DNA of 64,000 bases. It comes from a virus. The notes under the pieces were generated by a model that saw only the letters and a program-made list of their open reading frames with translations, ran no database searches and was not told the DNA's origin. The DNA lies in IMG/VR virus record IMGVR_UViG_3300021957_000015, positions 15,170 to 79,169 of that record. One strand, given 5' to 3'. Position 1 is the first letter of the stretch, and every line of letters starts with the position of its first letter. A program made the translations under genes and the position numbers. Positions 53,013-64,000 of this stretch are shown here, one piece after another.

Positions 53013-53273
53013 ATGAACTATAAAAGATTTAACAGACACGATTGCTTTACGTCAGAAATGATGACAATGACAATGGACATTATTAAAGCAACCGAAGACG
53101 AGTCACTAAAAAATATGGCATATGGGCTTTTTGATGGATATTTATACGATAATCTATTGCCTAAAGCAATTGAAGTCGGTGTAAGTAAAGAAATAGAAAA
53201 TAAAATCAAAGGTCTAAAAAAAGCCATTGAAATGTATATTCAATTAACAGGTAATACAGTGACATATGTATAG
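53013..53273 (+). CDS. Small hypothetical early protein
   Basis: ATG of MNYKRF follows the previous stop. Confidence 0.6.
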   Translation: MNYKRFNRHDCFTSEMMTMTMDIIKATEDESLKNMAYGLFDGYLYDNLLPKAIEVGVSKEIENKIKGLKKAIEMYIQLTGNTVTYV

Positions 53274-53430
53274 AACTACATTTTTTCTAAGAAGAGAAGA
53301 CGAATATTCTCCAGAAATTATTTACGCAGTAAAACACTGCAAAAGACCCGCAGCAACAAAAGCATATAAAAATCTTATTAAAATGTTTAATAAGGGTGAA
53401 ATTGCAGGGTATGGTTGGAAACGAAACTAA
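53266..53430 (+). CDS. Small hypothetical protein (54 aa), not in the ORF track
   Basis: MYRTTFFLRREDEYSPEIIYAVKHCKRPAATKAYKNLIKMFNKGEIAGYGWKRN fills the gap exactly. Confidence 0.6.
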   Translation: MYRTTFFLRREDEYSPEIIYAVKHCKRPAATKAYKNLIKMFNKGEIAGYGWKRN

Positions 53431-53441
53431 AATTATATAAT

Positions 53442-53744
53442 ATGAATACATTTGATAAAATTAAAATAGTTAAAGAAGCTGTACAAAAATTCTTCGATGA
53501 TAGTGCAGAACAATTTATACACGACAATGATATTATTTCTTGGGAAGAAAATCACATTGTCACAACAGGTACACAGATCATGTGTAAAAAATGGAATGTC
53601 AACGACATGGGAGGCGGATTTGTCCAATCAGTTATAGACAATGATTTAAGCAAAACAATGGCCTCAGCTGACAACATCAATATGCACGCTGTCAGATTCT
53701 ACTGTGCTATGATTTATAACTTATCTAAACCTAAACGTATATAA
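53442..53744 (+). CDS. Hypothetical protein
   Basis: ATG of MNTFDKI; contains GGGFVQSVIDNDL...ADNIN. Confidence 0.65.
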   Translation: MNTFDKIKIVKEAVQKFFDDSAEQFIHDNDIISWEENHIVTTGTQIMCKKWNVNDMGGGFVQSVIDNDLSKTMASADNINMHAVRFYCAMIYNLSKPKRI

Positions 53745-53810
53745 TGTTAGGAAACTAACACTTTGCAGCCATCAGCGCGAGTGCAGCACTAAAAGAGTCG
53801 AATAAATAAT

Positions 53811-53837
53811 TAAACAAATTATACTTTGTGTGTATAA
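53811..53837 (+). promoter_or_regulatory. (T)AAAC-N17-TATAA promoter motif heading the modification cluster
   Basis: TAAAC aaattatactttgtgtg TATAA. Confidence 0.55.
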
Positions 53838-53853
53838 TAACTAAACGTTTTAT

Positions 53854-54162
53854 ATGTCTAAAAAGAAAACCAACATCTTATCTGAAGCTAACGAAATAGT
53901 AAACAACCGCTCAGAAGAAAAATCACGTCAATATGGACCATTCGAAGAAGGTATGCGAAGAGCTGCTATGATTTTCAATGGCATGACAGGTAAAGAATTA
54001 AACGGCTCAGATATGTATGCTGCGCTTGTAGCACTTAAATTAAGTCGACACTCTTATAATTATAAACAAGACAATCTATTAGATGCAGTTGCATATTTAG
54101 GCGCATTAGATAACTATGTTGAAAAACATGGCTATAAAGACACTGAAGATCCAATAAAATAA
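53854..54162 (+). CDS. DUF6378-like all-alpha nucleotide pyrophosphohydrolase-related protein
   Basis: ILSEANEIVNNR...QYG...ALKLSR...DNLLDAVAY. Confidence 0.7.
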   Translation: MSKKKTNILSEANEIVNNRSEEKSRQYGPFEEGMRRAAMIFNGMTGKELNGSDMYAALVALKLSRHSYNYKQDNLLDAVAYLGALDNYVEKHGYKDTEDPIK

Positions 54163-54165
54163 ATT

Positions 54166-55227
54166 ATGACAGAACTAACATTTTTTACAGAAAAGGAAAC
54201 CGATAAGTCGATTAAAGTCGGCATTTGTGCATTGGTTGGTAAAATTAGCCCAAAAATATCATCACACAAAGGTGCTTGGGCCCACATGCTATTAAATCAA
54301 TTACAAAACGCTGGTTTTGAAAACGCAGAAGTAATCACATCTAACCAAACAGATTGGAATGACTATGACGCAATTCTAATTGATCACGGTATGGAATTCA
54401 AAGGTACCTTTAATATATTTGGAGGATCTAATGATGATTTATATCACCAACTAATGAGATTATTTACACCAGTCAAAATGTATTCTTTACATCATGACAT
54501 GCCAGATATTGGTAACTTAATTAAAACTAGACTAAAAGCGGGTACAGATTTATTTAAAACACTTGAATCTAGAATTGAAGAAGCTACAGAAATCTGTATG
54601 GAAATACAAAAGATTGATCATATTGAAAAAACTGAAAAGTTATGCTTTGGTGATAGTCACTCTTTTGGAATGTATCAAGCGGGATATATGTGTCAAAGAC
54701 ACGATGGATTAACAATGCATGGCGCACTTAAGCGTGGTTTACAAAGTTATGTTTATCCATGGATAAATGAACTTACAGTTTATATGGGTAATATTGATGT
54801 TCGACATCACTTAATGCGTCAGTCAAATCCAAGCGCTGCAGTCAAGGTACTCATAAAAAGATATGAAGAAGAACTTATTGGATTAGGTATTAATAATATT
54901 GAAATTGTAAATGTTTTACCTATTGAAAACGAAAGTAGACCTTTACCAAAAACAGGGTACTATAAAGGAACACCATTTGCTGGGACTTGGAATGAACGTA
55001 CAGCATTAGTTAAAGAAATTAATGCTGGAATAGAAGACATGGCACAAAGAAATAACTGGAAGGTTTATAAACATTCAGAAGTTTATTTTAATGCCAAAGG
55101 CGAACTAACTTTCGATGTAATGGAAAAACCTAAATCCGTCCACATATCTAGAGAATACTATAGATGGAATATGGAAAAAAACGAAGCAAATAAAAATTTA
55201 ATTAAACAAACACTATCTTTATTTTAA
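54166..55227 (+). CDS. Uncharacterised protein of the modification cluster with SGNH-like C-terminal domain
   Basis: FGDSHS, GNIDVRHH and SVHIS motifs. Confidence 0.5.
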   Translation: MTELTFFTEKETDKSIKVGICALVGKISPKISSHKGAWAHMLLNQLQNAGFENAEVITSNQTDWNDYDAILIDHGMEFKGTFNIFGGSNDDLYHQLMRLFTPVKMYSLHHDMPDIGNLIKTRLKAGTDLFKTLESRIEEATEICMEIQKIDHIEKTEKLCFGDSHSFGMYQAGYMCQRHDGLTMHGALKRGLQSYVYPWINELTVYMGNIDVRHHLMRQSNPSAAVKVLIKRYEEELIGLGINNIEIVNVLPIENESRPLPKTGYYKGTPFAGTWNERTALVKEINAGIEDMAQRNNWKVYKHSEVYFNAKGELTFDVMEKPKSVHISREYYRWNMEKNEANKNLIKQTLSLF

Positions 55228-55376
55228 TGAAAGCAGACGAAAAATTCAACATAGAAATTACCTACAATGGATCAGGTAAAACCGAAACAATAGTAATAGA
55301 AACTAAAGATATAGAGTGGTCAATGACACAGTTTCAAAGAAATAGACCATCATTTAATTGGAAAATTATAGATTAA
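55227..55376 (+). CDS. Small hypothetical protein (49 aa), not in the ORF track
   Basis: MKADEKFNIEITYNGSGKTETIVIETKDIEWSMTQFQRNRPSFNWKIID; TAATG-coupled to the upstream gene, stop 1 nt before the next ATG. Confidence 0.65.
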   Translation: MKADEKFNIEITYNGSGKTETIVIETKDIEWSMTQFQRNRPSFNWKIID

Positions 55377-55377
55377 C

Positions 55378-56586
55378 ATGCAAATAACAACGACTAAGTA
55401 TTATGATGAGTTCTTAAGATATTTTGAGCTAGCCAAAAAACAACAAGATCTAAGTAATCTTGGTCATGTTCCACATGCAGAATCAAAATTAGACGACGAA
55501 CTAATGCATCACATAGAATTATATGATGTAGTAGAACGTAAATACGCTGGATTTTCTCAAATAATCAACGACTGTTTTTATGGTTGGAATTCAGATCATC
55601 CATATTGGTCAAGAATGGAAGCAGGATTATACACTCCACAACGAATGGAAGTGGCTACTAATTGGAATTCTAAAAGAGACGAATTTGGTCTAGAAGAATG
55701 GCTTTATATTTTTATACTTCATAGGGTATGTGGATCTGCTATTAATTATGCAACCAAACCATCAGGATATCACAACACTATTTTATTCAATTTACATGAA
55801 TGTGAAACTATAGAAGAAATGTGTGAAGTTATTAAACATCACCCAACACCGTTTTACACATCAGTCGGATATCAATTTCCAGCATTTCCAAAACCGCCAA
55901 AACCCGAAGTTAACGAAGATTCATTTGTCGGAATGGCAAACTTTAGCAAACCTGAATATGTTTACAAAAGAGGTGGAGATTATTTCTTATGTGAATTTGC
56001 GCCTAGAATGGCAAGAGATATGGCAAATTTCCTAAGAACTGATGGTAAAAAAGACTTAAGAGAATTAGGTGAGTGGATGTTTAAATGGAATGCTGATAAT
56101 GGTCTAAGAGCATATAGATTTCAATATGCTGCAGTTATTGCAGATGTATGTGATTGGTACCCTGAATTTATGAATAGAGAATCAATGTTCTATTATGGTA
56201 CTAACGCAGTAGAATGTATTGGTTATCTTGCAGATCCTGTAGAAAAGAAAGGTAAGAAGTCAGAAGAATTTTTAGATGCAGTAATGACAAAGATTTATGA
56301 AGATACAGGCTCACTTCCATATAATGCAGAAGATGTAGCATGTGACTTTATTAGGTGGATAGAAAACTATCTAAGACCCGGAAAGGATTATGCTCACATA
56401 AATATGGATACATTATGGAATTCTTCTTCGATTACAGATCATCCATACGGTAGACAAAAAGCTATGTTGGATTTAGGTTTAGTAGAAACGTTCAATGGCA
56501 TGACTCAATTTCCATCGGACGACAAGGTATTACAAGGAGCAGGAGTCTCTGTTGAAGAGTATAAAAAAATGGTAGCAAAAATATGA
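55378..56586 (+). CDS. Putative DNA base hypermodification enzyme (aGPT-Pplase/amino acid:DNA transferase-like)
   Basis: YDVVERKYAGF, FILHRVCGS, FQYAAVIAD, YYGTNA and AEDVACDFIRW fit the glycosylase-like aGPT-Pplase fold; cluster context supports this. Confidence 0.6.
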   Translation: MQITTTKYYDEFLRYFELAKKQQDLSNLGHVPHAESKLDDELMHHIELYDVVERKYAGFSQIINDCFYGWNSDHPYWSRMEAGLYTPQRMEVATNWNSKRDEFGLEEWLYIFILHRVCGSAINYATKPSGYHNTILFNLHECETIEEMCEVIKHHPTPFYTSVGYQFPAFPKPPKPEVNEDSFVGMANFSKPEYVYKRGGDYFLCEFAPRMARDMANFLRTDGKKDLRELGEWMFKWNADNGLRAYRFQYAAVIADVCDWYPEFMNRESMFYYGTNAVECIGYLADPVEKKGKKSEEFLDAVMTKIYEDTGSLPYNAEDVACDFIRWIENYLRPGKDYAHINMDTLWNSSSITDHPYGRQKAMLDLGLVETFNGMTQFPSDDKVLQGAGVSVEEYKKMVAKI

Positions 56587-57689
56587 GTGAAGAAGTAAAA
56601 GAAATCAAAAAAGAAATTAAGCAAGCACCCGATCAAGGTGTTTTGTTTACATTTGATGATGATACCACACAAGAGTACAGTAACATCACTTATGATGGAA
56701 CTAATACAAATATAAAATTTAAAAAGAAAAAACCTGCAGAAAGTTGGATGAAAGATTGGTCAGAAGAATTGAGATTAGCTAAATTCTTTGAATTCTGCCA
56801 TGAGTTTGATAAACGAGAAGATAGATTACTATTAGAAGATTATCAAATATTTTCCCATAGATTACACTGGCATGAACATCCTTATTGTTACATGATGCAA
56901 CATGAGACAGATCTAGAAAAATTACTTTATTATACTATTGTGTTTTCATTCTCTAACGAACATTGGGGAACCATTACTAAATTAATTAATCAAGGTGAAG
57001 AAAAGACTAGGGCACATTTTGTAGAAAATAGACATGCTAGAAATGATTTATTTCAGATCTATTATCCTAAAGGTACAATAGTTAAAGACTGGTTAATTGA
57101 AGGACCTAAAAAAGCAGCAAAAGATATGGCTCACATTCTAGAAGATTTAGAAAGACCATACACAATGATGGAGTTTGCTAAATTATTAGAAGCTTATTTT
57201 AAAGAACATCAAAACTTTAGATCACCTCTATATCCATGCAAAAACACAGCAAGATATGTGGCCATGAGCAGACCAGATCTTGTTGATCCTGAATCTATTT
57301 TATTCGGAGGTACTGGACATTTTGATGGTATGCAACAGATATTTGGTGGAGTTAATCTTAATGGCAAAGTAAAATATTCTATTGACTCAGATGGACAATT
57401 TATTGCAGAGAATAAACATGCTGAAGAATGGCTAAGACAAATGGATGTACTTGTAAATCATCCAAATAATCCAATGGAAAGTCAAAAGTATTTAAACGTA
57501 GAAGATAAAACATGTTTCTTCTATAAACACATTGCAATTAGCCATGGAATAAAATCACCAACAAAAAGAATTCCATATACGTGGATATTTGATGGTAAAT
57601 TTAATTTAGCTAAGAATCCAGATAAAGAAATTAATGTTAACGCAGATACTACTCGACATTTATGGGGTAGAGATTATCCAAACGAATAA
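56583..57689 (+). CDS. Second aGPT-Pplase-like/glycosylase-fold protein
   Basis: FFEFCHEFDKRED, FSHRLHW, FGGTG and VEDKTCFFYK parallel the E-D-x-x-C motif of the upstream gene. Confidence 0.5.
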   Translation: MSEEVKEIKKEIKQAPDQGVLFTFDDDTTQEYSNITYDGTNTNIKFKKKKPAESWMKDWSEELRLAKFFEFCHEFDKREDRLLLEDYQIFSHRLHWHEHPYCYMMQHETDLEKLLYYTIVFSFSNEHWGTITKLINQGEEKTRAHFVENRHARNDLFQIYYPKGTIVKDWLIEGPKKAAKDMAHILEDLERPYTMMEFAKLLEAYFKEHQNFRSPLYPCKNTARYVAMSRPDLVDPESILFGGTGHFDGMQQIFGGVNLNGKVKYSIDSDGQFIAENKHAEEWLRQMDVLVNHPNNPMESQKYLNVEDKTCFFYKHIAISHGIKSPTKRIPYTWIFDGKFNLAKNPDKEINVNADTTRHLWGRDYPNE

Positions 57690-57692
57690 AAT

Positions 57693-58589
57693 ATGGCACA
57701 CGATAAACACACAACAAGTTCAATGAATCAAGATTTAAATCTTATGATGCCTAATAGACAAGCATGGTTAGATTTAGCAGGAGATTGGCAAGATCCACTA
57801 GATGATCCAATTATTATGAATCATGAAGGATTTAATGTAGTAAGAGATGATATGATGGGATTTGGATCTAAATGTAGATTTGGAGATATCTTAGTACAAA
57901 AAGCACCAACAGATACGCTAGTATATGTGCAGCCTAGATTTGGATTCGCAGGAATTTCTCTTGCATACTTAGCAAAAAAATACAATAAGAAATTAGTATT
58001 ATTTATGCCATCTGGTAAAGTAATATCAGATCATCAAGCAATTTGTATTGAAAGAGGTGCTATTGCTAAATTTAGAAGAATAGCGGCAATGCCTAATTTA
58101 AATAGAATTGCAAAACAATGGGCAGAAGATAACAATGCTACATTTATTCCTTTAGGACTTAAACATGAATTAGTAACTGCTGCAGCGGTAAAAGTTGCAT
58201 ATGATATAGCAGAAAAACATGGATATCCAGAAGAAGTATGGTCGGCAATATCAACTGGAGTTTTACAACGCTCTTTACAAATTGCATGGCCAGATGCTGA
58301 GTTTAATGCAGTTGCAGTTTCTAGAAATATTCAAAATGGTGAATTAGGTATAGCTAAAGTTTGGTCTCATCCAAAGGCATTTGCCTCAGATGTAAAACCA
58401 GAATTTGCTCCCCCATTCCCATCAGCAATGAACTATGATGCAAAAGCATGGGAGTTTATGGTAAAACATGGAAATCAAGGAGCTTGGTTCTGGAATGTAG
58501 GAGGACAGCCTTACCCAGAATCAGAAGAAACTAAAGAAAAAACAAATTCAAAAAGAGAATGGGGAGAAGTTTTAGAAATGGACCTATAA
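57693..58589 (+). CDS. PLP-dependent enzyme, fold type II (tryptophan synthase beta-like)
   Basis: VVRDD...GSKCR (PLP lysine), GFAGISLAY, SAISTGVL, NYDAKAW, FWNVG. Confidence 0.8.
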   Translation: MAHDKHTTSSMNQDLNLMMPNRQAWLDLAGDWQDPLDDPIIMNHEGFNVVRDDMMGFGSKCRFGDILVQKAPTDTLVYVQPRFGFAGISLAYLAKKYNKKLVLFMPSGKVISDHQAICIERGAIAKFRRIAAMPNLNRIAKQWAEDNNATFIPLGLKHELVTAAAVKVAYDIAEKHGYPEEVWSAISTGVLQRSLQIAWPDAEFNAVAVSRNIQNGELGIAKVWSHPKAFASDVKPEFAPPFPSAMNYDAKAWEFMVKHGNQGAWFWNVGGQPYPESEETKEKTNSKREWGEVLEMDL

Positions 58590-58594
58590 AAACT

Positions 58595-58621
58595 GAAACT
58601 ATCTCATTAAAGATCATAGAA
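58595..58621 (+). promoter_or_regulatory. GAAAC-N17-TAGAA promoter motif
   Basis: GAAAC tatctcattaaagatca TAGAA. Confidence 0.5.
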
Positions 58622-58640
58622 ATAATATACAAAAAAAATC

Positions 58641-59108
58641 ATGGCGAATATAGACAACGAATGTAAAGACTTAGAAGTAAAAGACTTCTACGCAGAATCA
58701 ACAACGCACTTAGAAGACATTATGTCTCATCAAAAAAACATGCAAGAACAAACTTACGGTTTTAACTTTGAAGAAATGTCATTACGAGATGTAATGAATT
58801 TTTGGCATTGTAATACGCATGCTGTAATTGATGAAATTCACGAAATGACAGATGCTCTTGGTGGAATTAAAGACGGAAGTGGAAATGCAGTATGGAAATA
58901 CTGGAAGAAAGACTTCTCAACATTTGATAATAAGAAAGTTTCTGATTTATCTGAAGATGATAAAAAAGAACTATATATGGAATGGGTAGATATTCTACAC
59001 TTCTTTATTAATTATGCCGCGTCCATAGGCCTTGACGCAAAGACCGCTTACAACTACTATTTTGCAAAAGCAGAAGAGAATGTTCAACGTCAAAAAAGAG
59101 GCTATTAA
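58641..59108 (+). CDS. Dimeric all-alpha dUTPase/dCTPase (T4 gp56-like)
   Basis: DEIHEM, WKYWK, EWVDILHFF, K..EN..RQKRGY. Confidence 0.85.
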   Translation: MANIDNECKDLEVKDFYAESTTHLEDIMSHQKNMQEQTYGFNFEEMSLRDVMNFWHCNTHAVIDEIHEMTDALGGIKDGSGNAVWKYWKKDFSTFDNKKVSDLSEDDKKELYMEWVDILHFFINYAASIGLDAKTAYNYYFAKAEENVQRQKRGY

Positions 59109-60523
59109 TGTTATTAGATATAGAACAAAAAGAAAACGAAGTCATAATTAGTTACTATGACAAAGAAGGTAAAGTATCTTTTAAAAGGTATTCAGTTAAT
59201 AAATTTGAAAACTGGGTAGTCACCAATGACAAAGATCGTTGGAGAGACAACACGTATACCAATTGGGATGGAAGGCCAATTAAAAGATCTATTTCTAAAA
59301 GCTTTAATAAATTTAGTTTACTATATTTCATGGATTCCTTACCAAAAAAGGATCAAGAAGAAATATTTGAATTCAATATGCCACGTACATATTTCGTAGA
59401 TATTGAAACCGAAATCGTAGATGGTTTTCCTAAAGCAGAAGAAGCCAAAACTAGAATCTTATCATTTTCTATTATTACCCCAGAACGTAAAGCTATTGTT
59501 TTAGGTTTGGAAGATATGAGTTCTGATCAAATAAAAAAAATAGAAGAAGACACCAATAAACATTTTAAGGATTACGATCAGGATTGGGAATTTAGTTACT
59601 ACAAATTTGATGATGAGTATAACATGGTGTATACATTTCTTCATAAATTCTTACCTAAGTTCCCAATGATGACAGGGTGGAACTTCATCAACTATGACTG
59701 GCAATATATAGTTAACAGATGTAAACGTTTACAAATAGACCTAACTGATGTGGCTATTACTGGCTCTTTAGATAGAAATGATAGTCGTCCTCTTCACATG
59801 GGAATATTAGATTACATGCAATTGTATGATAAATATGATAGATCAGTTGCTGTAAAAGAATCTAACTCGCTTGATTTTGTATCTGGTGCTGTATTAGATG
59901 TGGCAAAAATTAAATATACCGGAGGCTTACAAGAACTTTATGAAAACAATTTCCAAAAGTATATTTATTATAACGTTGTCGATTCATGTCTAGTATACTA
60001 CATAGATAAGCAACTTAGATCTATGGAAGTACTTTTAACATTAGCAACTATTACTAGAATGCCACTTTATAAAGCAGCTTCTCCGGTGGCGATGACAGAA
60101 GCACTAATGGCTAGAAAGTTAATTAGCCAGAATAAAAAAATTGGAATGGAATGGAATAAAGAAGATGCTAAGAAGGACGGTAAATATGAAGGAGCATTCG
60201 TTAAGCAGCCTATTGTAGGTTATTACTCTGGTGTTTCAGCATTTGATTTTGCATCTCTGTATCCTTCAATTATGCGTCAATTTAATATATCCCCAGATGC
60301 ATTTGTTGAGCAAGTAAATGAAATAGACATTCCAGAAAGAAGAAAAGATAAAAGCGTAATTGTTTGCGAAAACGGAGTAGTTTATAAGAAAGAAGATAGT
60401 ATTTTAAAAAAAATATTAGCAGACCTATATGATCAACGTAAACAATACAAAAAGACTTCATATGAGTATTATGAAAAGGCATATGAACTTGAAAAAAAAT
60501 TAAATAAAAAAATTAAAGTCTAA
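59108..60523 (+). CDS. gp43: Family B DNA polymerase, N-terminal subunit (exonuclease + motif A) of a split enzyme
   Basis: ExoI DIET, ExoII GWNFINYD, ExoIII YNVVD; YEGAFV; motif A DFASLYPSI; ends in the first fingers helix; no KxxxNSxYG or DTDS. Confidence 0.88.
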   Translation: MLLDIEQKENEVIISYYDKEGKVSFKRYSVNKFENWVVTNDKDRWRDNTYTNWDGRPIKRSISKSFNKFSLLYFMDSLPKKDQEEIFEFNMPRTYFVDIETEIVDGFPKAEEAKTRILSFSIITPERKAIVLGLEDMSSDQIKKIEEDTNKHFKDYDQDWEFSYYKFDDEYNMVYTFLHKFLPKFPMMTGWNFINYDWQYIVNRCKRLQIDLTDVAITGSLDRNDSRPLHMGILDYMQLYDKYDRSVAVKESNSLDFVSGAVLDVAKIKYTGGLQELYENNFQKYIYYNVVDSCLVYYIDKQLRSMEVLLTLATITRMPLYKAASPVAMTEALMARKLISQNKKIGMEWNKEDAKKDGKYEGAFVKQPIVGYYSGVSAFDFASLYPSIMRQFNISPDAFVEQVNEIDIPERRKDKSVIVCENGVVYKKEDSILKKILADLYDQRKQYKKTSYEYYEKAYELEKKLNKKIKV

Positions 60524-60673
60524 TTTTAGAAAAAGAAAATAGTAGCATGATATATAAAATCCTAGCAGCGCTGCTATTATTCTTACATTTTAATCGATTA
60601 GACTGGGTCTTAAACTAAGGCCCATTGTAGTCTTAACTGGAATCTGTAAAAAAATTAAAAATATAATAGCAAT

Positions 60674-61684
60674 ATGTCAAATCTCTTTAAAGAACGTTTA
60701 GAATATAAGCCGTTCGAATATCCTGAATACTACACCGAAGGTTGGCTTAAACAAGCTCAGGCTTTTTGGTTACACACCGAAATCTCAATGCAAGGTGATG
60801 TAAAAGACTGGAATGAAAACTTAATGCCACATGAAAAGAACTTAGTAGGCAATATTCTTTTGGGTTTCGCCCAAACCGAATGTGCAGTATCTGATTACTG
60901 GACAAACATGGTTACCTCTTGGTTTCCTAAACACGAAATTAGACAAATGGCAATGATGTTCGGATCACAAGAGACAATTCATGCTGTTGCATATTCATAT
61001 CTTAATGAAACTTTAGGTTTAGAAGATTTCGCAGCATTTCTTCATGAACCTGCAACTGCTGAAAAATTTGACTTTCTAACTTCAACAACAGCAGATTACA
61101 CGCATGAAGATTTACAAACAAATCCTGTAGCAAGAAAAGAAGTAGCAAGATCATTGGCTATTTTTAGTGCATTCGCAGAAGGCGTTTCATTATATTCATC
61201 ATTTGCAGTACTTTACTCGTTTCAAATGAGAAACTTACTAAAAGGTATTGGACAACAAATGAAATGGTCTGTAAGGGATGAATCATTACATAGTAAAATG
61301 GGATGTCAGCTGTTTAGAGAGATGTGTAATGAATATCCTGAATTACCTGAAGAAATTCACGCAGATGTACTTAAAGCAGCTGAATATATGGTTGAAATGG
61401 AACACAAGTTTATTGATAAAATGTTTGAGCAAGGAGATCTTGCAAATATGGAAGCTGAAAATCTAAAACATTTTATTGTTAAACGAGCTAACGAAAAAAT
61501 TGCTGAATTAGGATATAAAGAAGGGCCATTTATGGAATTAGATAATGAAAAGGCTAGTCATTTAGATTGGTTCTATCATTTAACAGGTGGACATACACAT
61601 ACAGACTTTTTTGCAATCAGACCTACTGATTATGCTAAAGCTGGAGAAGATGAAAACTGGGACGAGGACGACTTATTCGATTAA
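60674..61684 (+). CDS. nrdB: Ribonucleotide reductase class Ia beta subunit
   Basis: AFWLHTE, ETIHAVAYS, EGVSLYSSF and RDESLH di-metal motifs. Confidence 0.95.
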   Translation: MSNLFKERLEYKPFEYPEYYTEGWLKQAQAFWLHTEISMQGDVKDWNENLMPHEKNLVGNILLGFAQTECAVSDYWTNMVTSWFPKHEIRQMAMMFGSQETIHAVAYSYLNETLGLEDFAAFLHEPATAEKFDFLTSTTADYTHEDLQTNPVARKEVARSLAIFSAFAEGVSLYSSFAVLYSFQMRNLLKGIGQQMKWSVRDESLHSKMGCQLFREMCNEYPELPEEIHADVLKAAEYMVEMEHKFIDKMFEQGDLANMEAENLKHFIVKRANEKIAELGYKEGPFMELDNEKASHLDWFYHLTGGHTHTDFFAIRPTDYAKAGEDENWDEDDLFD

Positions 61685-63670: not shown

Positions 63671-64000
63671 ATGAAGCCAACAAACCCTAACTTTTGGACA
63701 AATGTTAAAGGTCAACTAGCATTTAGAAACTTAGAAAAAGAAGAACAAGTATATCGAGATAATATATTTCCCTCATGGACTAATAATCAGATAGACGAAG
63801 CCATTGTAATTTATTATGAAGTATATGATTGCCACAGTGGAGGATATATTGATGATTCTTTATACCAGCATGGTGATTGTATTATTAAAGAAGGTGACGT
63901 TGTTCTAGATCTTGGTGCTAACATTGGTATTTTTACTAGATTTGCAAGTGATAAAGGAGCAAAAAAAGTTTATTCATTTGAACCTATTCAAGAAAACTTT
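63671..64000 (+). CDS. FkbM-family SAM-dependent methyltransferase (3' truncated by the window end)
   Basis: Translated by hand: ...IKEGDVVLDLGANIGIFTRFASDKGAKKVYSFEP. Confidence 0.85.
   Translation, partial: MKPTNPNFWTNVKGQLAFRNLEKEEQVYRDNIFPSWTNNQIDEAIVIYYEVYDCHSGGYIDDSLYQHGDCIIKEGDVVLDLGANIGIFTRFASDKGAKKVYSFEPIQENF

What the first reader, a model, noticed from the sequence alone, without database searches (positions are those of the whole stretch)
53854..59108. Putative DNA base hypermodification operon with two transferase-like paralogues, a PLP enzyme and an SGNH-like protein
Seen: tightly coupled genes for a DUF6378-like protein, an SGNH-like protein, a 49-aa ORF, two glycosylase-fold aGPT-Pplase-like proteins, a fold-II PLP enzyme and a dUTPase/dCTPase, directly upstream of the DNA polymerase. 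Known: in phages ViI and M6, amino acid:DNA transferases of this family plus a PLP enzyme build amino-acid-derived thymidine modifications on phosphorylated 5hmdU. Inference: this gene combination may make a different modified base. No 5hmU kinase or thymidylate-synthase homologue is visible in this window.
Basis: partly seen in the sequence, partly recalled or inferred. Interest (0 to 1): 0.7.

Follow-up and report, generated by a model that had tools for sequence, protein, structure and literature searches.

The report
Kinase-less cytosine DNA hypermodification operon
Just upstream of its DNA polymerase, an uncultured marine T4-like phage carries distant relatives of the enzymes that attach amino acids to thymine in other phages' DNA; in related phages this gene set travels with the hydroxymethylcytosine pathway and never with the usual DNA kinase, so the phage DNA probably carries a decorated cytosine that has not been described chemically.

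Summary
The gene set is real and tightly packed (53854-59108, + strand). The two 'transferase-like' proteins match no Pfam or PHROG model. Their AlphaFold models both have the PaMx11 gp46 amino acid:DNA transferase crystal structure as best PDB hit (Z 8.6 and 9.4). They are true paralogues (hhalign E 3e-6) and keep an invariant Glu-x3-Cys motif spaced as in the validated active site. The PLP enzyme belongs to the family of M6 gp52, the DNA-bound amino-acid decarboxylase, and keeps its lysine. The last gene is a T4 gp56 (dCTPase) homologue.

Four complete or near-complete genomes with the module have no 5-HMUDK; the positive control on M6 worked. All nine partner thymidylate-synthase homologues carry the T4 gp42 dCMP-hydroxymethylase signature, and in three lineages that gene lies beside the module.

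The invariant core is SGNH-like protein + transferase A + PLP enzyme, and the first two are fused in some phages. Transferase B and several other genes are optional. Best reading: a kinase-less 5hmC hypermodification cassette, a new variant of a known kind.

The precursor gene is seen only in relatives, because this contig is 29% complete. Nothing is biochemically tested. Earlier agents of this scan reached the same reading on other genomes.

The parts
53811..53838 (+). Promoter-like site (TAAACA-16-TATAAT) just upstream of the first gene
   Evidence: Best + strand sigma-70-like match in 53200-60800 (10 of 12). The scan as a whole is not enriched over shuffles, so this is only a candidate operon start.
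53854..54162 (+). DUF6378 protein (102 aa); frequent but not universal member of the module
   Evidence: PF19905 E 7.2e-12, 45.9 bits over the cut-off of 27.1; phrog_474 E 4e-13. Directly upstream of the SGNH-like gene in 51 of 58 related loci. No BLASTP match in the small phages L091-L093.
54166..55227 (+). SGNH-like two-domain protein (353 aa); core member and candidate functional replacement for the DNA kinase
   Evidence: phrog_13881 E 3e-56 and phrog_17781 E 2e-58. Lipase_GDSL only E 0.039. Invariant GDSH (S164), GNIDxRHH (N209) and KSVH (H326), plus N-domain motifs. Fused N-terminally to transferase A in P0271, L090 and L089. Present in every locus that has the module.
55227..55376 (+). 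Conserved 49-aa ORF of unknown role
   Evidence: BLASTP-detectable homologue (39-100% identity in the loci tabulated) at the same position in most related loci. A thioredoxin gene takes its place in the L065 lineage.
55378..56586 (+). AADT-like transferase A (402 aa); core member with candidate catalytic E318 and C322
   Evidence: No Pfam or PHROG hit. AlphaFold model pLDDT 75.7. Best of 48,161 PDB chains is 8z2m, the PaMx11 gp46 5-PmdU glycinyltransferase: Z 8.6, rmsd 4.2, 210 residues aligned. BFVD hits include AADT-named proteins, Pplase clade 1 and HMUDK_hel. E318, C322 and D323 are nearly invariant in 60 members down to 21% identity. The family holds 156 clusters at 50% identity.
56583..57689 (+). 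AADT-like transferase B (368 aa); optional paralogue with candidate catalytic E307 and C311
   Evidence: Model pLDDT 81.6. Best PDB hit is 8z2m: Z 9.4, rmsd 4.2, 226 of 287 residues aligned. hhalign against the family A profile gives probability 88%, E 3.1e-6, pairing VDPES..G[TN] and EDxxC. E307, D308 and C311 are invariant. Present in 29 of 58 loci that have the core.
57693..58589 (+). Fold-type II PLP enzyme of the M6 gp52 / ViI gp226 family (298 aa); core member with PLP lysine K60
   Evidence: phrog_7093 E 2.7e-38. M6 gp52, the validated DNA-bound amino-acid decarboxylase, scores 2.2e-159 on the same PHROG. K60 is invariant and aligns with M6 gp52's FSKIR lysine; the C-terminal PFP..YD.KAW..FWNxG signature is shared.
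58641..59108 (+). T4 gp56-like dCTPase/dUTPase (155 aa, MazG-type)
   Evidence: BLASTP to T4 gp56: E 3e-20, 31% identity over 108 aa. phrog_173 E 9e-13. Adjacent in 51 of 58 loci.
59108..60523 (+). N-terminal half of a split family-B DNA polymerase (context, not part of the pathway proper)
   Evidence: PF03104 and PF00136. tblastn aligns T4 gp43 residues 185-487. In relatives the C-half lies about 4.6 kb downstream.

Best explanation
This is a post-replicative DNA hypermodification cassette that most likely acts on 5-hydroxymethylcytosine, not on 5-hydroxymethyluracil, and that works without the 5-hm-pyrimidine DNA kinase of all characterised pathways of this kind.

Proposed sequence of events:
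1. Inferred from relatives; the hydroxymethylase gene is not on this 29%-complete contig. The gp56-like dCTPase (58641-59108) depletes dCTP and supplies dCMP. A gp42-type dCMP hydroxymethylase elsewhere in the genome makes 5hmdCMP. The split B-family polymerase then puts 5hmC into phage DNA.
2. Inferred from fold, motif and analogy. Transferase A (402 aa) flips the base out. Cys322 adds to C6, with Glu318 and Asp319 assisting. The C5 substituent leaves, giving an exocyclic methylene, and a nucleophile adds. That nucleophile is probably an amino acid bound through its side chain, so that its alpha-amine stays free.
3. Most speculative step. The SGNH-like protein is always present and sometimes fused to transferase A. 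It takes the kinase's logical place, either by making an ester leaving group on the hydroxymethyl or by handling the donor.
4. Inferred from family membership. The gp52-type PLP enzyme (Lys60) binds the free amine of the tethered amino acid and decarboxylates it, leaving an amine-terminated side chain.
5. Transferase B, which keeps its own Glu-x3-Cys, is an optional second transferase. In relatives, LOG, GT2 + UDP-galactopyranose mutase, CitG-like and FkbM methyltransferase genes further vary the product.

The likely purpose, as for other hypermodified phage DNA, is protection from host nucleases.
For: Fold: both models have the AADT crystal structure 8z2m as top hit among 48,161 PDB chains (Z 8.6 and 9.4), ahead of HhH glycosylases. 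BFVD hits include AADT-named proteins, Pplase clade 1 and HMUDK_hel.

Motif: Glu-x3-Cys is invariant or nearly so in both families. The spacing equals E243/C247 of PaMx11 gp46, the metal ligand and the nucleophile. Both residues are essential in M6 gp51 and ViI gp247 (PMC8989533). The end of the aligned range (model 333, chain 258) is consistent with C322 falling on C247.

PLP enzyme: same PHROG as validated M6 gp52, with the lysine conserved.

Functional linkage: SGNH-like and transferase A occur as natural fusions. The trio is conserved in 58 related loci and in unrelated 37 kb, 54 kb and 225 kb phages.

Cytosine route: gp56 homologue in the operon. All TS partners have Asp143, Asp169 and Asp177, using the diagnostics of bioRxiv 10.1101/2025.06.16.659550. 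The gp42-like gene is directly adjacent in L093, three genes away in L077 and L080, and about 5 kb away in L091. dCMP deaminase and an NTP pyrophosphohydrolase flank the module.

No kinase: PF18748 is absent from G001, G006, G008 and G009, which are complete or 93% complete. The positive control on M6 gave 1.1e-19.
Against: No sequence-level homology to canonical AADTs. Pfam ADDT gives no hit for the window's proteins, and only 1 of 60 family members reaches E 1e-3, below cut-off. hhalign against an M6 gp51 family profile gives probability under 3%.

Z scores of 8.6-9.4 are middling for helical proteins by the tool's own caveat. The next hits, the QNG1/DUF2419 queuine salvage enzymes, reach Z about 7.

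Residue-level equivalence of the Cys was not verified.

The gp42-like gene is documented only in relatives; the nearest complete one shares 76% identity in transferase A. It is not on this contig or on its closest long relative (G004, 43% complete).

Complete relatives also keep a canonical ThyA, which is compatible with the cytosine route but does not prove it.

The SGNH fold and the role of that protein are unproven. A non-PF18748 kinase elsewhere in these genomes cannot be excluded. No chemistry has been measured.
Confidence: 0.6

Rival explanations
1. One reading: a thymidine hypermodification pathway of the ViI/M6 type. Here 5hmdU in DNA is phosphorylated by a kinase encoded outside the window, an amino acid is transferred by the two AADT-like proteins, and the PLP enzyme decarboxylates it.
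For: Every characterised AADT and gp52-type PLP enzyme acts on thymidine derivatives (PMC8989533; PMC11472151). The contig is only 29% complete, so a kinase and a dUMP hydroxymethylase could lie elsewhere. gp56-type enzymes also hydrolyse dUTP.
Against: Four complete or near-complete genomes with the module have no PF18748 kinase (control). Every non-canonical TS homologue examined in module-bearing genomes is Asp-type; the only Asn-type TS seen is a canonical ThyA. Gene neighbours are dC-pathway enzymes.
Confidence: 0.1
2. The target is 5hmC DNA but the chemistry differs from 'amino-acid transfer then decarboxylation'. For example, the fold-II PLP enzyme may perform a beta-replacement or elimination, or may make the nucleophile. 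Alternatively the transferred group is not an amino acid (a polyamine, thiol or sugar-linked group), with the SGNH-like enzyme acting as an esterase that trims an intermediate.
For: Fold-type II PLP enzymes typically catalyse beta-replacement or elimination (general knowledge). The window's PLP protein shares only about 23% identity with M6 gp52. PhiW-14's AADT transfers putrescine, not an amino acid. Relatives add GT2/GLF, LOG, CitG-like and FkbM genes, which shows chemical flexibility.
Against: The only experimentally characterised members of phrog_7093 are decarboxylases of DNA-tethered amino acids. The PLP gene is as invariant as the transferase, which fits an obligatory tailoring step.
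Confidence: 0.15
3. The module acts on free nucleotides or on RNA rather than on DNA. The HhH-fold proteins would then be nucleotide or nucleoside glycosylase-like enzymes, as in QNG1/DUF2419 queuosine salvage, remodelling a modified nucleotide pool.
For: QNG1/DUF2419 structures are the second and third best hits for transferase A (Z 7.4 and 7.0). A LOG-family nucleotide phosphoribohydrolase is an accessory gene in about a quarter of loci. The operon sits among nucleotide-metabolism genes.
Against: The AADT structure outranks QNG1 for both paralogues. The Glu-x3-Cys motif is the AADT signature. The gp52-type PLP partner is known only from DNA-level pathways.
Confidence: 0.08
4. There is no joint function. 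The genes are unrelated early genes that happen to cluster upstream of the polymerase, and the fold similarity only reflects a common helical arrangement.
For: The Z scores are middling for helical folds. There is no curated-model hit, and no experiment.
Against: Natural fusions exist. The same trio recurs in shuffled order in unrelated phage genomes. Invariant catalytic-type residues are kept in three proteins.
Confidence: 0.03

Closest known systems
Thymidine hypermodification clusters of phages M6, PaMx11, ViI, PhiW-14 and SP10: dUMP hydroxymethylase, 5-HMUDK kinase, clade-2 aGPT-Pplase (AADT/ADDT, PF18724), often a clade-1 paralogue (HMUDK_hel, PF18723), and tailoring enzymes such as the gp52/gp226 PLP decarboxylase
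   Same: HhH-glycosylase-like transferase fold with 8z2m as top structural hit. Glu-x3-Cys motif. Often a paralogous pair. An adjacent PLP enzyme of the same PHROG as M6 gp52, with its lysine. Location near the DNA polymerase and nucleotide-metabolism genes. Combinatorial accessory genes.
   Different: No match to PF18724 or PF18723 at curated thresholds and no profile-profile link. No 5-HMUDK in complete genomes. The partner TS homologue is dCMP-specific (Asp177) rather than dUMP-specific. An SGNH-like protein is obligatory and can be fused to the transferase. Thr244 of the canonical E-T-x-x-C is Asp here (E-D-x-x-C).
Phage T4 5hmC pathway: gp56 dCTPase, gp42 dCMP hydroxymethylase, cd dCMP deaminase, alpha- and beta-glucosyltransferases next to gene 43
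   Same: gp56 homologue in the operon. gp42-type hydroxymethylase and dCMP deaminase in or beside the module in relatives. The modification genes sit next to the DNA polymerase, as b-gt and gene 42 do in T4.
   Different: The decorating enzymes are AADT-like, PLP and SGNH-like proteins instead of glucosyltransferases. There is no detectable similarity of the SGNH-like protein to T4 a-gt or b-gt. Some relatives add a GT2 and a UDP-galactopyranose mutase.
Other known 5-substituted cytosine hypermodifications in phages: arabinosyl-5-hydroxycytosine of RB69/DLP3, and the TET-dependent glycosylated 5hmC pathways
   Same: They start from a cytosine derivative made by a TS homologue or made in DNA, then undergo post-replicative group transfer.
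   Different: The TS partners here keep Asp169, so they are not of the 5hoC type. No TET gene was seen within the operon or the flanks examined, though no TET/5mYOX family search was run. The transferases belong to a different superfamily.
HhH DNA glycosylases (EndoIII, AlkA, AGOG, Mag) and QNG1/DUF2419
   Same: Same general two-lobed helical fold (Z 5-7.4).
   Different: They score lower than the AADT structure. They lack the Glu-x3-Cys motif and the PLP and SGNH partners.

Membership tests
Amino acid:DNA transferase (clade-2 aGPT-Pplase; Pfam ADDT PF18724) | Significant match to the PF18724 profile | tested here: not met
   No hit at E <= 0.1 for either protein. No six-frame hit at E <= 10 in the own contig or in 5 long relatives. 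Among 60 diverse family members, one reaches E 0.00099, below cut-off.
Amino acid:DNA transferase (clade-2 aGPT-Pplase; Pfam ADDT PF18724) | Profile-profile homology to the M6 gp51 / PaMx11 gp46 family | tested here: not met
   hhalign of A4 (60 sequences) and A2 against A5 (M6 gp51 plus 27 PF18724 proteins): probability 2.7% and 0.1%. Alternative local alignments are also insignificant.
Amino acid:DNA transferase (clade-2 aGPT-Pplase; Pfam ADDT PF18724) | Two-helical-bundle, HhH-glycosylase-like fold of PaMx11 gp46 (PDB 8z2m) | tested here: met
   8z2m_A is the top hit of 48,161 chains for both models: Z 9.4, rmsd 4.2, 226 aligned; and Z 8.6, rmsd 4.2, 210 aligned. Z is middling for helical proteins, so this shows a shared fold and not a shared function.
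Amino acid:DNA transferase (clade-2 aGPT-Pplase; Pfam ADDT PF18724) | Conserved catalytic Cys with a neighbouring essential Glu (E243-x3-C247 in PaMx11 gp46) | tested here: inconclusive
   An E-x3-C motif is invariant in family B (E307, C311) and nearly invariant in family A (E318, C322), with the same spacing as the canonical QEVETVLCKW. The end of the aligned range for the 402-aa model (333 against 258) is consistent with C322 falling on C247. No residue-level structural alignment was available.
Amino acid:DNA transferase (clade-2 aGPT-Pplase; Pfam ADDT PF18724) | Co-occurrence with 5-hmdU DNA kinase (PF18748) and a dUMP hydroxymethylase | tested here: not met
   PF18748 is absent from the own contig, from the 4 complete or near-complete module-bearing genomes and from 23 fragments. 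The positive control on M6 gave 1.1e-19. All TS partners are Asp177 (dCMP) type.
Amino acid:DNA transferase (clade-2 aGPT-Pplase; Pfam ADDT PF18724) | Transfers an amino acid or amine to an activated 5-hydroxymethylpyrimidine in DNA | not testable with these tools
   Needs in vitro reconstitution and LC-MS.
5-hmdU DNA kinase helical domain (clade-1 aGPT-Pplase; PF18723) | Match to PF18723, or fold similarity to members | tested here: inconclusive
   No six-frame hit in the own contig. One of 60 family A members reaches E 0.01. The 368-aa model hits HMUDK_hel and Pplase1 proteins in BFVD at E 4e-3 to 5e-2, TM 0.38-0.49.
PLP-dependent decarboxylase of DNA-tethered amino acids (M6 gp52 / ViI gp226; phrog_7093) | Profile match to the family that holds M6 gp52 | tested here: met
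   Window protein against phrog_7093: E 2.7e-38. M6 gp52 against the same PHROG: 2.2e-159.
PLP-dependent decarboxylase of DNA-tethered amino acids (M6 gp52 / ViI gp226; phrog_7093) | PLP-binding lysine (K36 of M6 gp52) | tested here: met
   K60 (GSKCR) is invariant and aligned with M6 gp52's FSKIR in A7. K36 is named in PMC8989533.
PLP-dependent decarboxylase of DNA-tethered amino acids (M6 gp52 / ViI gp226; phrog_7093) | Decarboxylates an amino acid attached to a pyrimidine in DNA | not testable with these tools
   Needs an enzyme assay.
T4 gp56 dCTPase/dUTPase (all-alpha NTP pyrophosphohydrolase) | Sequence homology to T4 gp56 | tested here: met
   BLASTP E 3e-20, 31% identity over 108 aa including the C-terminal ERQ..GY. 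Substrate preference was not tested.
SGNH/GDSL hydrolase superfamily | Profile match above cut-off, or the SGNH fold | tested here: inconclusive
   Lipase_GDSL E 0.039 and 0.0082, both below cut-off. The Atlas gives only a 0.91 lead. There is no PDB sequence hit.
SGNH/GDSL hydrolase superfamily | Conserved blocks: GDS(x) serine, block III Asn, block V His | tested here: inconclusive
   GDSH (S164), GNID (N209) and KSVH (H326) are invariant or nearly so in 11 homologues down to 30% identity. Block V is not the canonical DxxH.
T4 gp42-type dCMP hydroxymethylase (5hmdCMP synthase) | TS homologue with Asp at E. coli ThyA positions 143 and 177 and Asp169 retained | tested here: met
   Met in 9 TS homologues of module-bearing relatives: G001, G003, G006-G010, L077 and L080. 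No such gene is on the window's own contig (best tblastn E 0.27), so for this phage it is inferred.

The most novel reading that the evidence does not exclude
These phages carry an amino-acid-derived 5-substituted cytosine that nobody has described, for example an aminoalkoxy- or aminoalkyl-methylcytosine. It would be made by a new branch of the AADT superfamily whose substrate is activated not by a DNA kinase but by an SGNH-like acyl-transfer enzyme, through an ester instead of a phosphate leaving group, or with no activation at all. Swappable accessory genes (second transferase, LOG, galactofuranose-adding GT, CitG-like, methyltransferase) would then produce a family of different cytosine decorations across phage lineages.
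Probability: 0.3. Interest if true: 0.85.

Novelty: new variant of a known kind. Interest (0 to 1): 0.75.

Why it matters
All biochemically characterised AADT pathways modify thymine and start with a DNA kinase. A cytosine-directed, kinase-less version would extend this chemistry to a second base and to a new activation step.

The module is common. There are 938 and 478 protein clusters at 90% identity for the two transferases, some from Tara Oceans samples, and 427 IMG/VR stretches. A substantial share of phage DNA in such samples may therefore carry an unrecognised base.

That would affect sequencing and restriction-based virome methods, and it bears on how these phages evade host nucleases. 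The enzymes would also be candidate tools for site-selective derivatisation of 5hmC.

The hypothesis is directly testable with recombinant proteins on unglucosylated T4 DNA, even though the phages themselves are uncultured.

Tried and rejected
- BLASTP between the two transferases gave nothing significant. Paralogy appeared only with a broad profile.
- tblastn of either transferase against 50,697 GenBank phage records found no match. blastn of the region matched only the polymerase in three huge uncultured phages.
- E279-C280 of the 402-aa protein looked like a Glu/Cys pair in close homologues but is not conserved in the wider family. It was dropped in favour of E318/C322.
- hhalign against a single M6 gp51 sequence, against the 28-sequence ADDT profile, and with relaxed local settings all failed.
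- NCBIfam has no model for any operon protein.
- SGNH-like protein: no PDB sequence match, an uninformative Atlas search, and no similarity to T4 alpha- or beta-glucosyltransferase.
Contexts of distant members were obtained through the search for related loci instead.
- The TS and kinase survey of 17 further records was uninformative because they are 7-39% complete fragments.
- The promoter and terminator scan is not enriched over shuffles.
- Sequencing-run and read-laying tools were not used, since expression would not discriminate between the hypotheses.

Full report
**Setting.** The window is the last 64 kb of a 79,169-bp linear virus contig that CheckV rates 29% complete. All genes run on the + strand and the DNA is AT-rich. 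Earlier notes on the same genome, together with homologues from Tara and other marine metagenomes, place it in uncultured marine T4-like jumbo phages. A gene missing from this contig therefore says little about the phage.

**Observation.** The ORFs are exactly as described: DUF6378 (53854-54162), a 353-aa protein (54166-55227), a 49-aa ORF (55227-55376), a 402-aa protein (55378-56586), a 368-aa protein (56583-57689), a 298-aa PLP enzyme (57693-58589) and a 155-aa NTP pyrophosphohydrolase (58641-59108). They abut or overlap by a few bases and end at the start of a family-B polymerase gene.

Model matches are as follows:
- DUF6378 is above cut-off.
- The PLP enzyme hits PALP weakly but phrog_7093 at 2.7e-38.
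- The 353-aa protein hits two unannotated PHROGs strongly and Lipase_GDSL only at E 0.039.
- The two 'transferase-like' proteins hit nothing in Pfam, PHROGs or NCBIfam.

**Are the two proteins aGPT-Pplase/AADT-like?** By curated sequence models, no.
- PF18724 (ADDT) and PF18723 (HMUDK_hel) give no hit to the proteins, the contig or five long relatives.
- Of 60 diverse family members, one touches ADDT at E 1e-3 and one touches HMUDK_hel at E 0.01.
- Profile-profile comparison with a 28-member M6 gp51 family alignment fails.

By structure, yes.
- AlphaFold models (pLDDT 75.7 and 81.6) were aligned to 48,161 PDB representatives without Foldseek.
- Both have 8z2m, the PaMx11 gp46 5-PmdU glycinyltransferase, as best hit: Z 8.6 with 210 residues aligned, and Z 9.4 with 226 of 287.
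- HhH glycosylases and QNG1 follow at Z 5-7.4.
- In BFVD each model finds a 52-57% identical protein that UniProt names 'Amino acid:DNA transferase domain-containing'. Each also cross-hits the other's partner, and both reach Pplase clade 1 and HMUDK_hel proteins.

A broad profile of the 402-aa family (A4, built from an exhaustive search that found 156 clusters) aligns to the 368-aa family at probability 88%, E 3e-6. The two are therefore real paralogues.

Both keep an invariant or nearly invariant Glu-x3-Cys: E318/C322 and E307/C311. Canonical AADTs have QEVETVLCKW. There Glu243 binds the metal that contacts the base, and Cys247 is the C6 nucleophile (PMC11472151). Both residues are essential (PMC8989533). 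The end of the structural alignment (333 against 258) is consistent with C322 falling on C247, but I could not obtain a residue-level map.

My reading is a new, Pfam-uncovered branch of the AADT/aGPT-Pplase superfamily. It works like an AADT, and membership of PF18724 itself is not met.

**PLP enzyme and dCTPase.** M6 gp52, shown experimentally to decarboxylate amino acids tethered to DNA, is the archetype of phrog_7093. The window's enzyme matches that PHROG. It also keeps the lysine (K60 against gp52's K36) and the C-terminal signature. The 155-aa protein is a homologue of T4 gp56 (E 3e-20).

**What travels with what.** In 80 related IMG/VR loci, 58 contain the whole core of SGNH-like protein + transferase A + PLP enzyme. 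Of those 58:
- DUF6378 and gp56 accompany the core in 51;
- transferase B is present in only 29;
- a 190-250-aa extra ORF lies between the transferase and the PLP gene in 14. It proved to be a LOG-family protein (PF03641) in the three loci scanned and a homing endonuclease in a fourth.

Other inserts are GT2+TPR with UDP-galactopyranose mutase, a CitG-like protein (in a 98% identical relative), an FkbM methyltransferase, thioredoxin and further homing endonucleases.

The SGNH-like protein and transferase A are fused in several phages: P0271 (41% identity, E 2e-77 to the SGNH-like protein), L090 and L089. The same trio, in shuffled order, occurs in phages of quite different genome size: 225 kb, 54 kb and 37 kb. 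It is thus an autonomous three-enzyme module.

- The four complete or near-complete genomes with the module (G001 at 256 kb, G006 at 225 kb, G009 at 54 kb, G008 at 37 kb) have no 5-hmdU DNA kinase. The same search finds M6's kinase at 1e-19.
- Each has a divergent TS homologue, and G001 and G003 have a canonical ThyA as well.
- I used the residue diagnostics of Lee et al. (bioRxiv 10.1101/2025.06.16.659550): N177D indicates a dCMP substrate, L143D/E indicates hydroxymethylation, and D169N indicates 5-hydroxy-dCMP.
- All nine partner TS homologues are Asp143, Asp169, Asp177, the same as T4 gp42. M6's dUMP hydroxymethylase and ThyA have Asn177.

Gene order reinforces this.
- In the 54-kb phage the order is NTP pyrophosphohydrolase, gp42-like (phmmer 1.6e-61 to T4 gp42), SGNH-like, PLP, transferase A, dCMP deaminase.
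- In the L077/L080 lineage the gp42-like gene and a dCMP deaminase lie immediately upstream of the module.

Together with the gp56 homologue in the window, the module is embedded in the dC-replacement pathway. For the window's own phage the hydroxymethylase is inferred, because it is not on the contig.

**Mechanism.** Shown here:
- gene content, conservation and fusions;
- fold similarity and conserved residues;
- family membership of the PLP enzyme and the dCTPase;
- the association with gp42-type enzymes;
- the absence of the known kinase.

Inferred:
- 5hmC in DNA is the substrate.
- Cys322 adds to C6, and an exocyclic methylene accepts a nucleophile.
- The nucleophile keeps a free alpha-amine. 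Lee et al. showed that the PLP enzyme cannot act on N-alpha-linked glycine without a radical-SAM isomerase, and none is present here.
- The PLP enzyme then decarboxylates.

Most speculative: the SGNH-like protein stands in for the kinase, by analogy with the kinase-Pplase fusions of SP10 and of metagenomic contigs. I also note that the residue after the Glu is Thr, a metal/O4 ligand, in thymine enzymes but mostly Asp here. That could suit the N4-amino group of cytosine, though this is only a thought.

**Literature.** Searches for aGPT-Pplase, Pplase, cytosine hypermodification and 5hmC with PLP found no description of an AADT acting on cytosine or of this module. The pelagiphage study states that marine myovirus TS genes occur without Pplase partners (PMC9599517). 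The library is not exhaustive.

**Earlier scan notes.** After reaching this reading I found that agents of this scan had examined the same module on other genomes and called it a kinase-less (hydroxymethyl)cytosine hypermodification cassette. My tests agree, but these are not independent experiments.

**Verdict.** This is a hypermodification operon, but most likely cytosine-directed and kinase-less. It is a new variant of a known kind. Confidence in the overall reading is 0.6.

Noticed in passing
window 59108-60523; L010:19749-20975; L003 and L039 likewise: The family-B DNA polymerase is split. The N-half (aligns to T4 gp43 residues about 185-487) follows the operon. In relatives the C-half (residues 515-885) lies about 4.6 kb downstream, after RNR beta, RNR alpha, a 138-aa gene and a 247-aa gene. 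It lies beyond the end of this contig.
   Followed up: partly
window 63671-64000 (cut by the contig end); L010:19021-19764: A 247-aa methyltransferase-like gene sits between the two polymerase halves. The window fragment gives FtsJ E 7e-4 and phrog_8156 E 5e-7. The full-length relative has no Pfam hit.
   Followed up: partly
L065:13143-15423 (also L063, L067, L071, L072): Some relatives insert a GT2+TPR glycosyltransferase and a UDP-galactopyranose mutase (PF03275, E 5e-79) between the PLP gene and the dCTPase gene. This hints at a galactofuranose decoration in those lineages.
   Followed up: partly
L003:9191-9988: A relative with 98% identical transferase A carries a CitG-like protein (ATP:dephospho-CoA triphosphoribosyl transferase, PF01874, E 8e-11) inserted between the 49-aa ORF and transferase A.
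   Followed up: no
L015:12351-13025, L024:3943-4665, L029:11206-11877: A LOG/TIGR00730-family protein (PF03641, E 1e-31 to 1e-35; TIGR00730, E 1.6e-41) lies between the transferase and the PLP gene in these loci. A similar-sized ORF occupies this position in 14 of 58 loci, though the one scanned in L082 is a homing endonuclease. Its role in a DNA-modification operon is unexplained.
   Followed up: partly
L046:12597-13178; L065:9666-10001; L082:8783-9397; L069:13013-13822: Further variable inserts in the same operon: an FkbM methyltransferase, a thioredoxin (in place of the 49-aa ORF), and GIY-YIG/NUMOD3/HNH homing endonucleases.
   Followed up: no
L093:6738-11574 (54-kb complete phage G009): A compact cassette: MazG/PRA-PH + dGTP_diPhyd_N pyrophosphohydrolase, gp42-like dCMP hydroxymethylase, SGNH-like protein, PLP enzyme, transferase A, dCMP deaminase. 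This is the clearest natural statement of the pathway.
   Followed up: yes
P0341 (639 aa): A different fusion: a stretch resembling the MGDG synthase N-domain (PF06925, E 8e-4) lies upstream of a transferase A domain.
   Followed up: no
window 53415-53744: A 109-aa gene of unknown function (weak phrog_1622) is conserved just upstream of DUF6378 in the closest relatives.
   Followed up: no
G001 (record of L065): C1:6-524 and 255882-256442: The canonical ThyA of the complete 256-kb relative is cut by the record's ends (direct terminal repeats). The genome thus holds both a canonical ThyA and the gp42-like gene (L087:1255-2160), as T4 does.
   Followed up: partly
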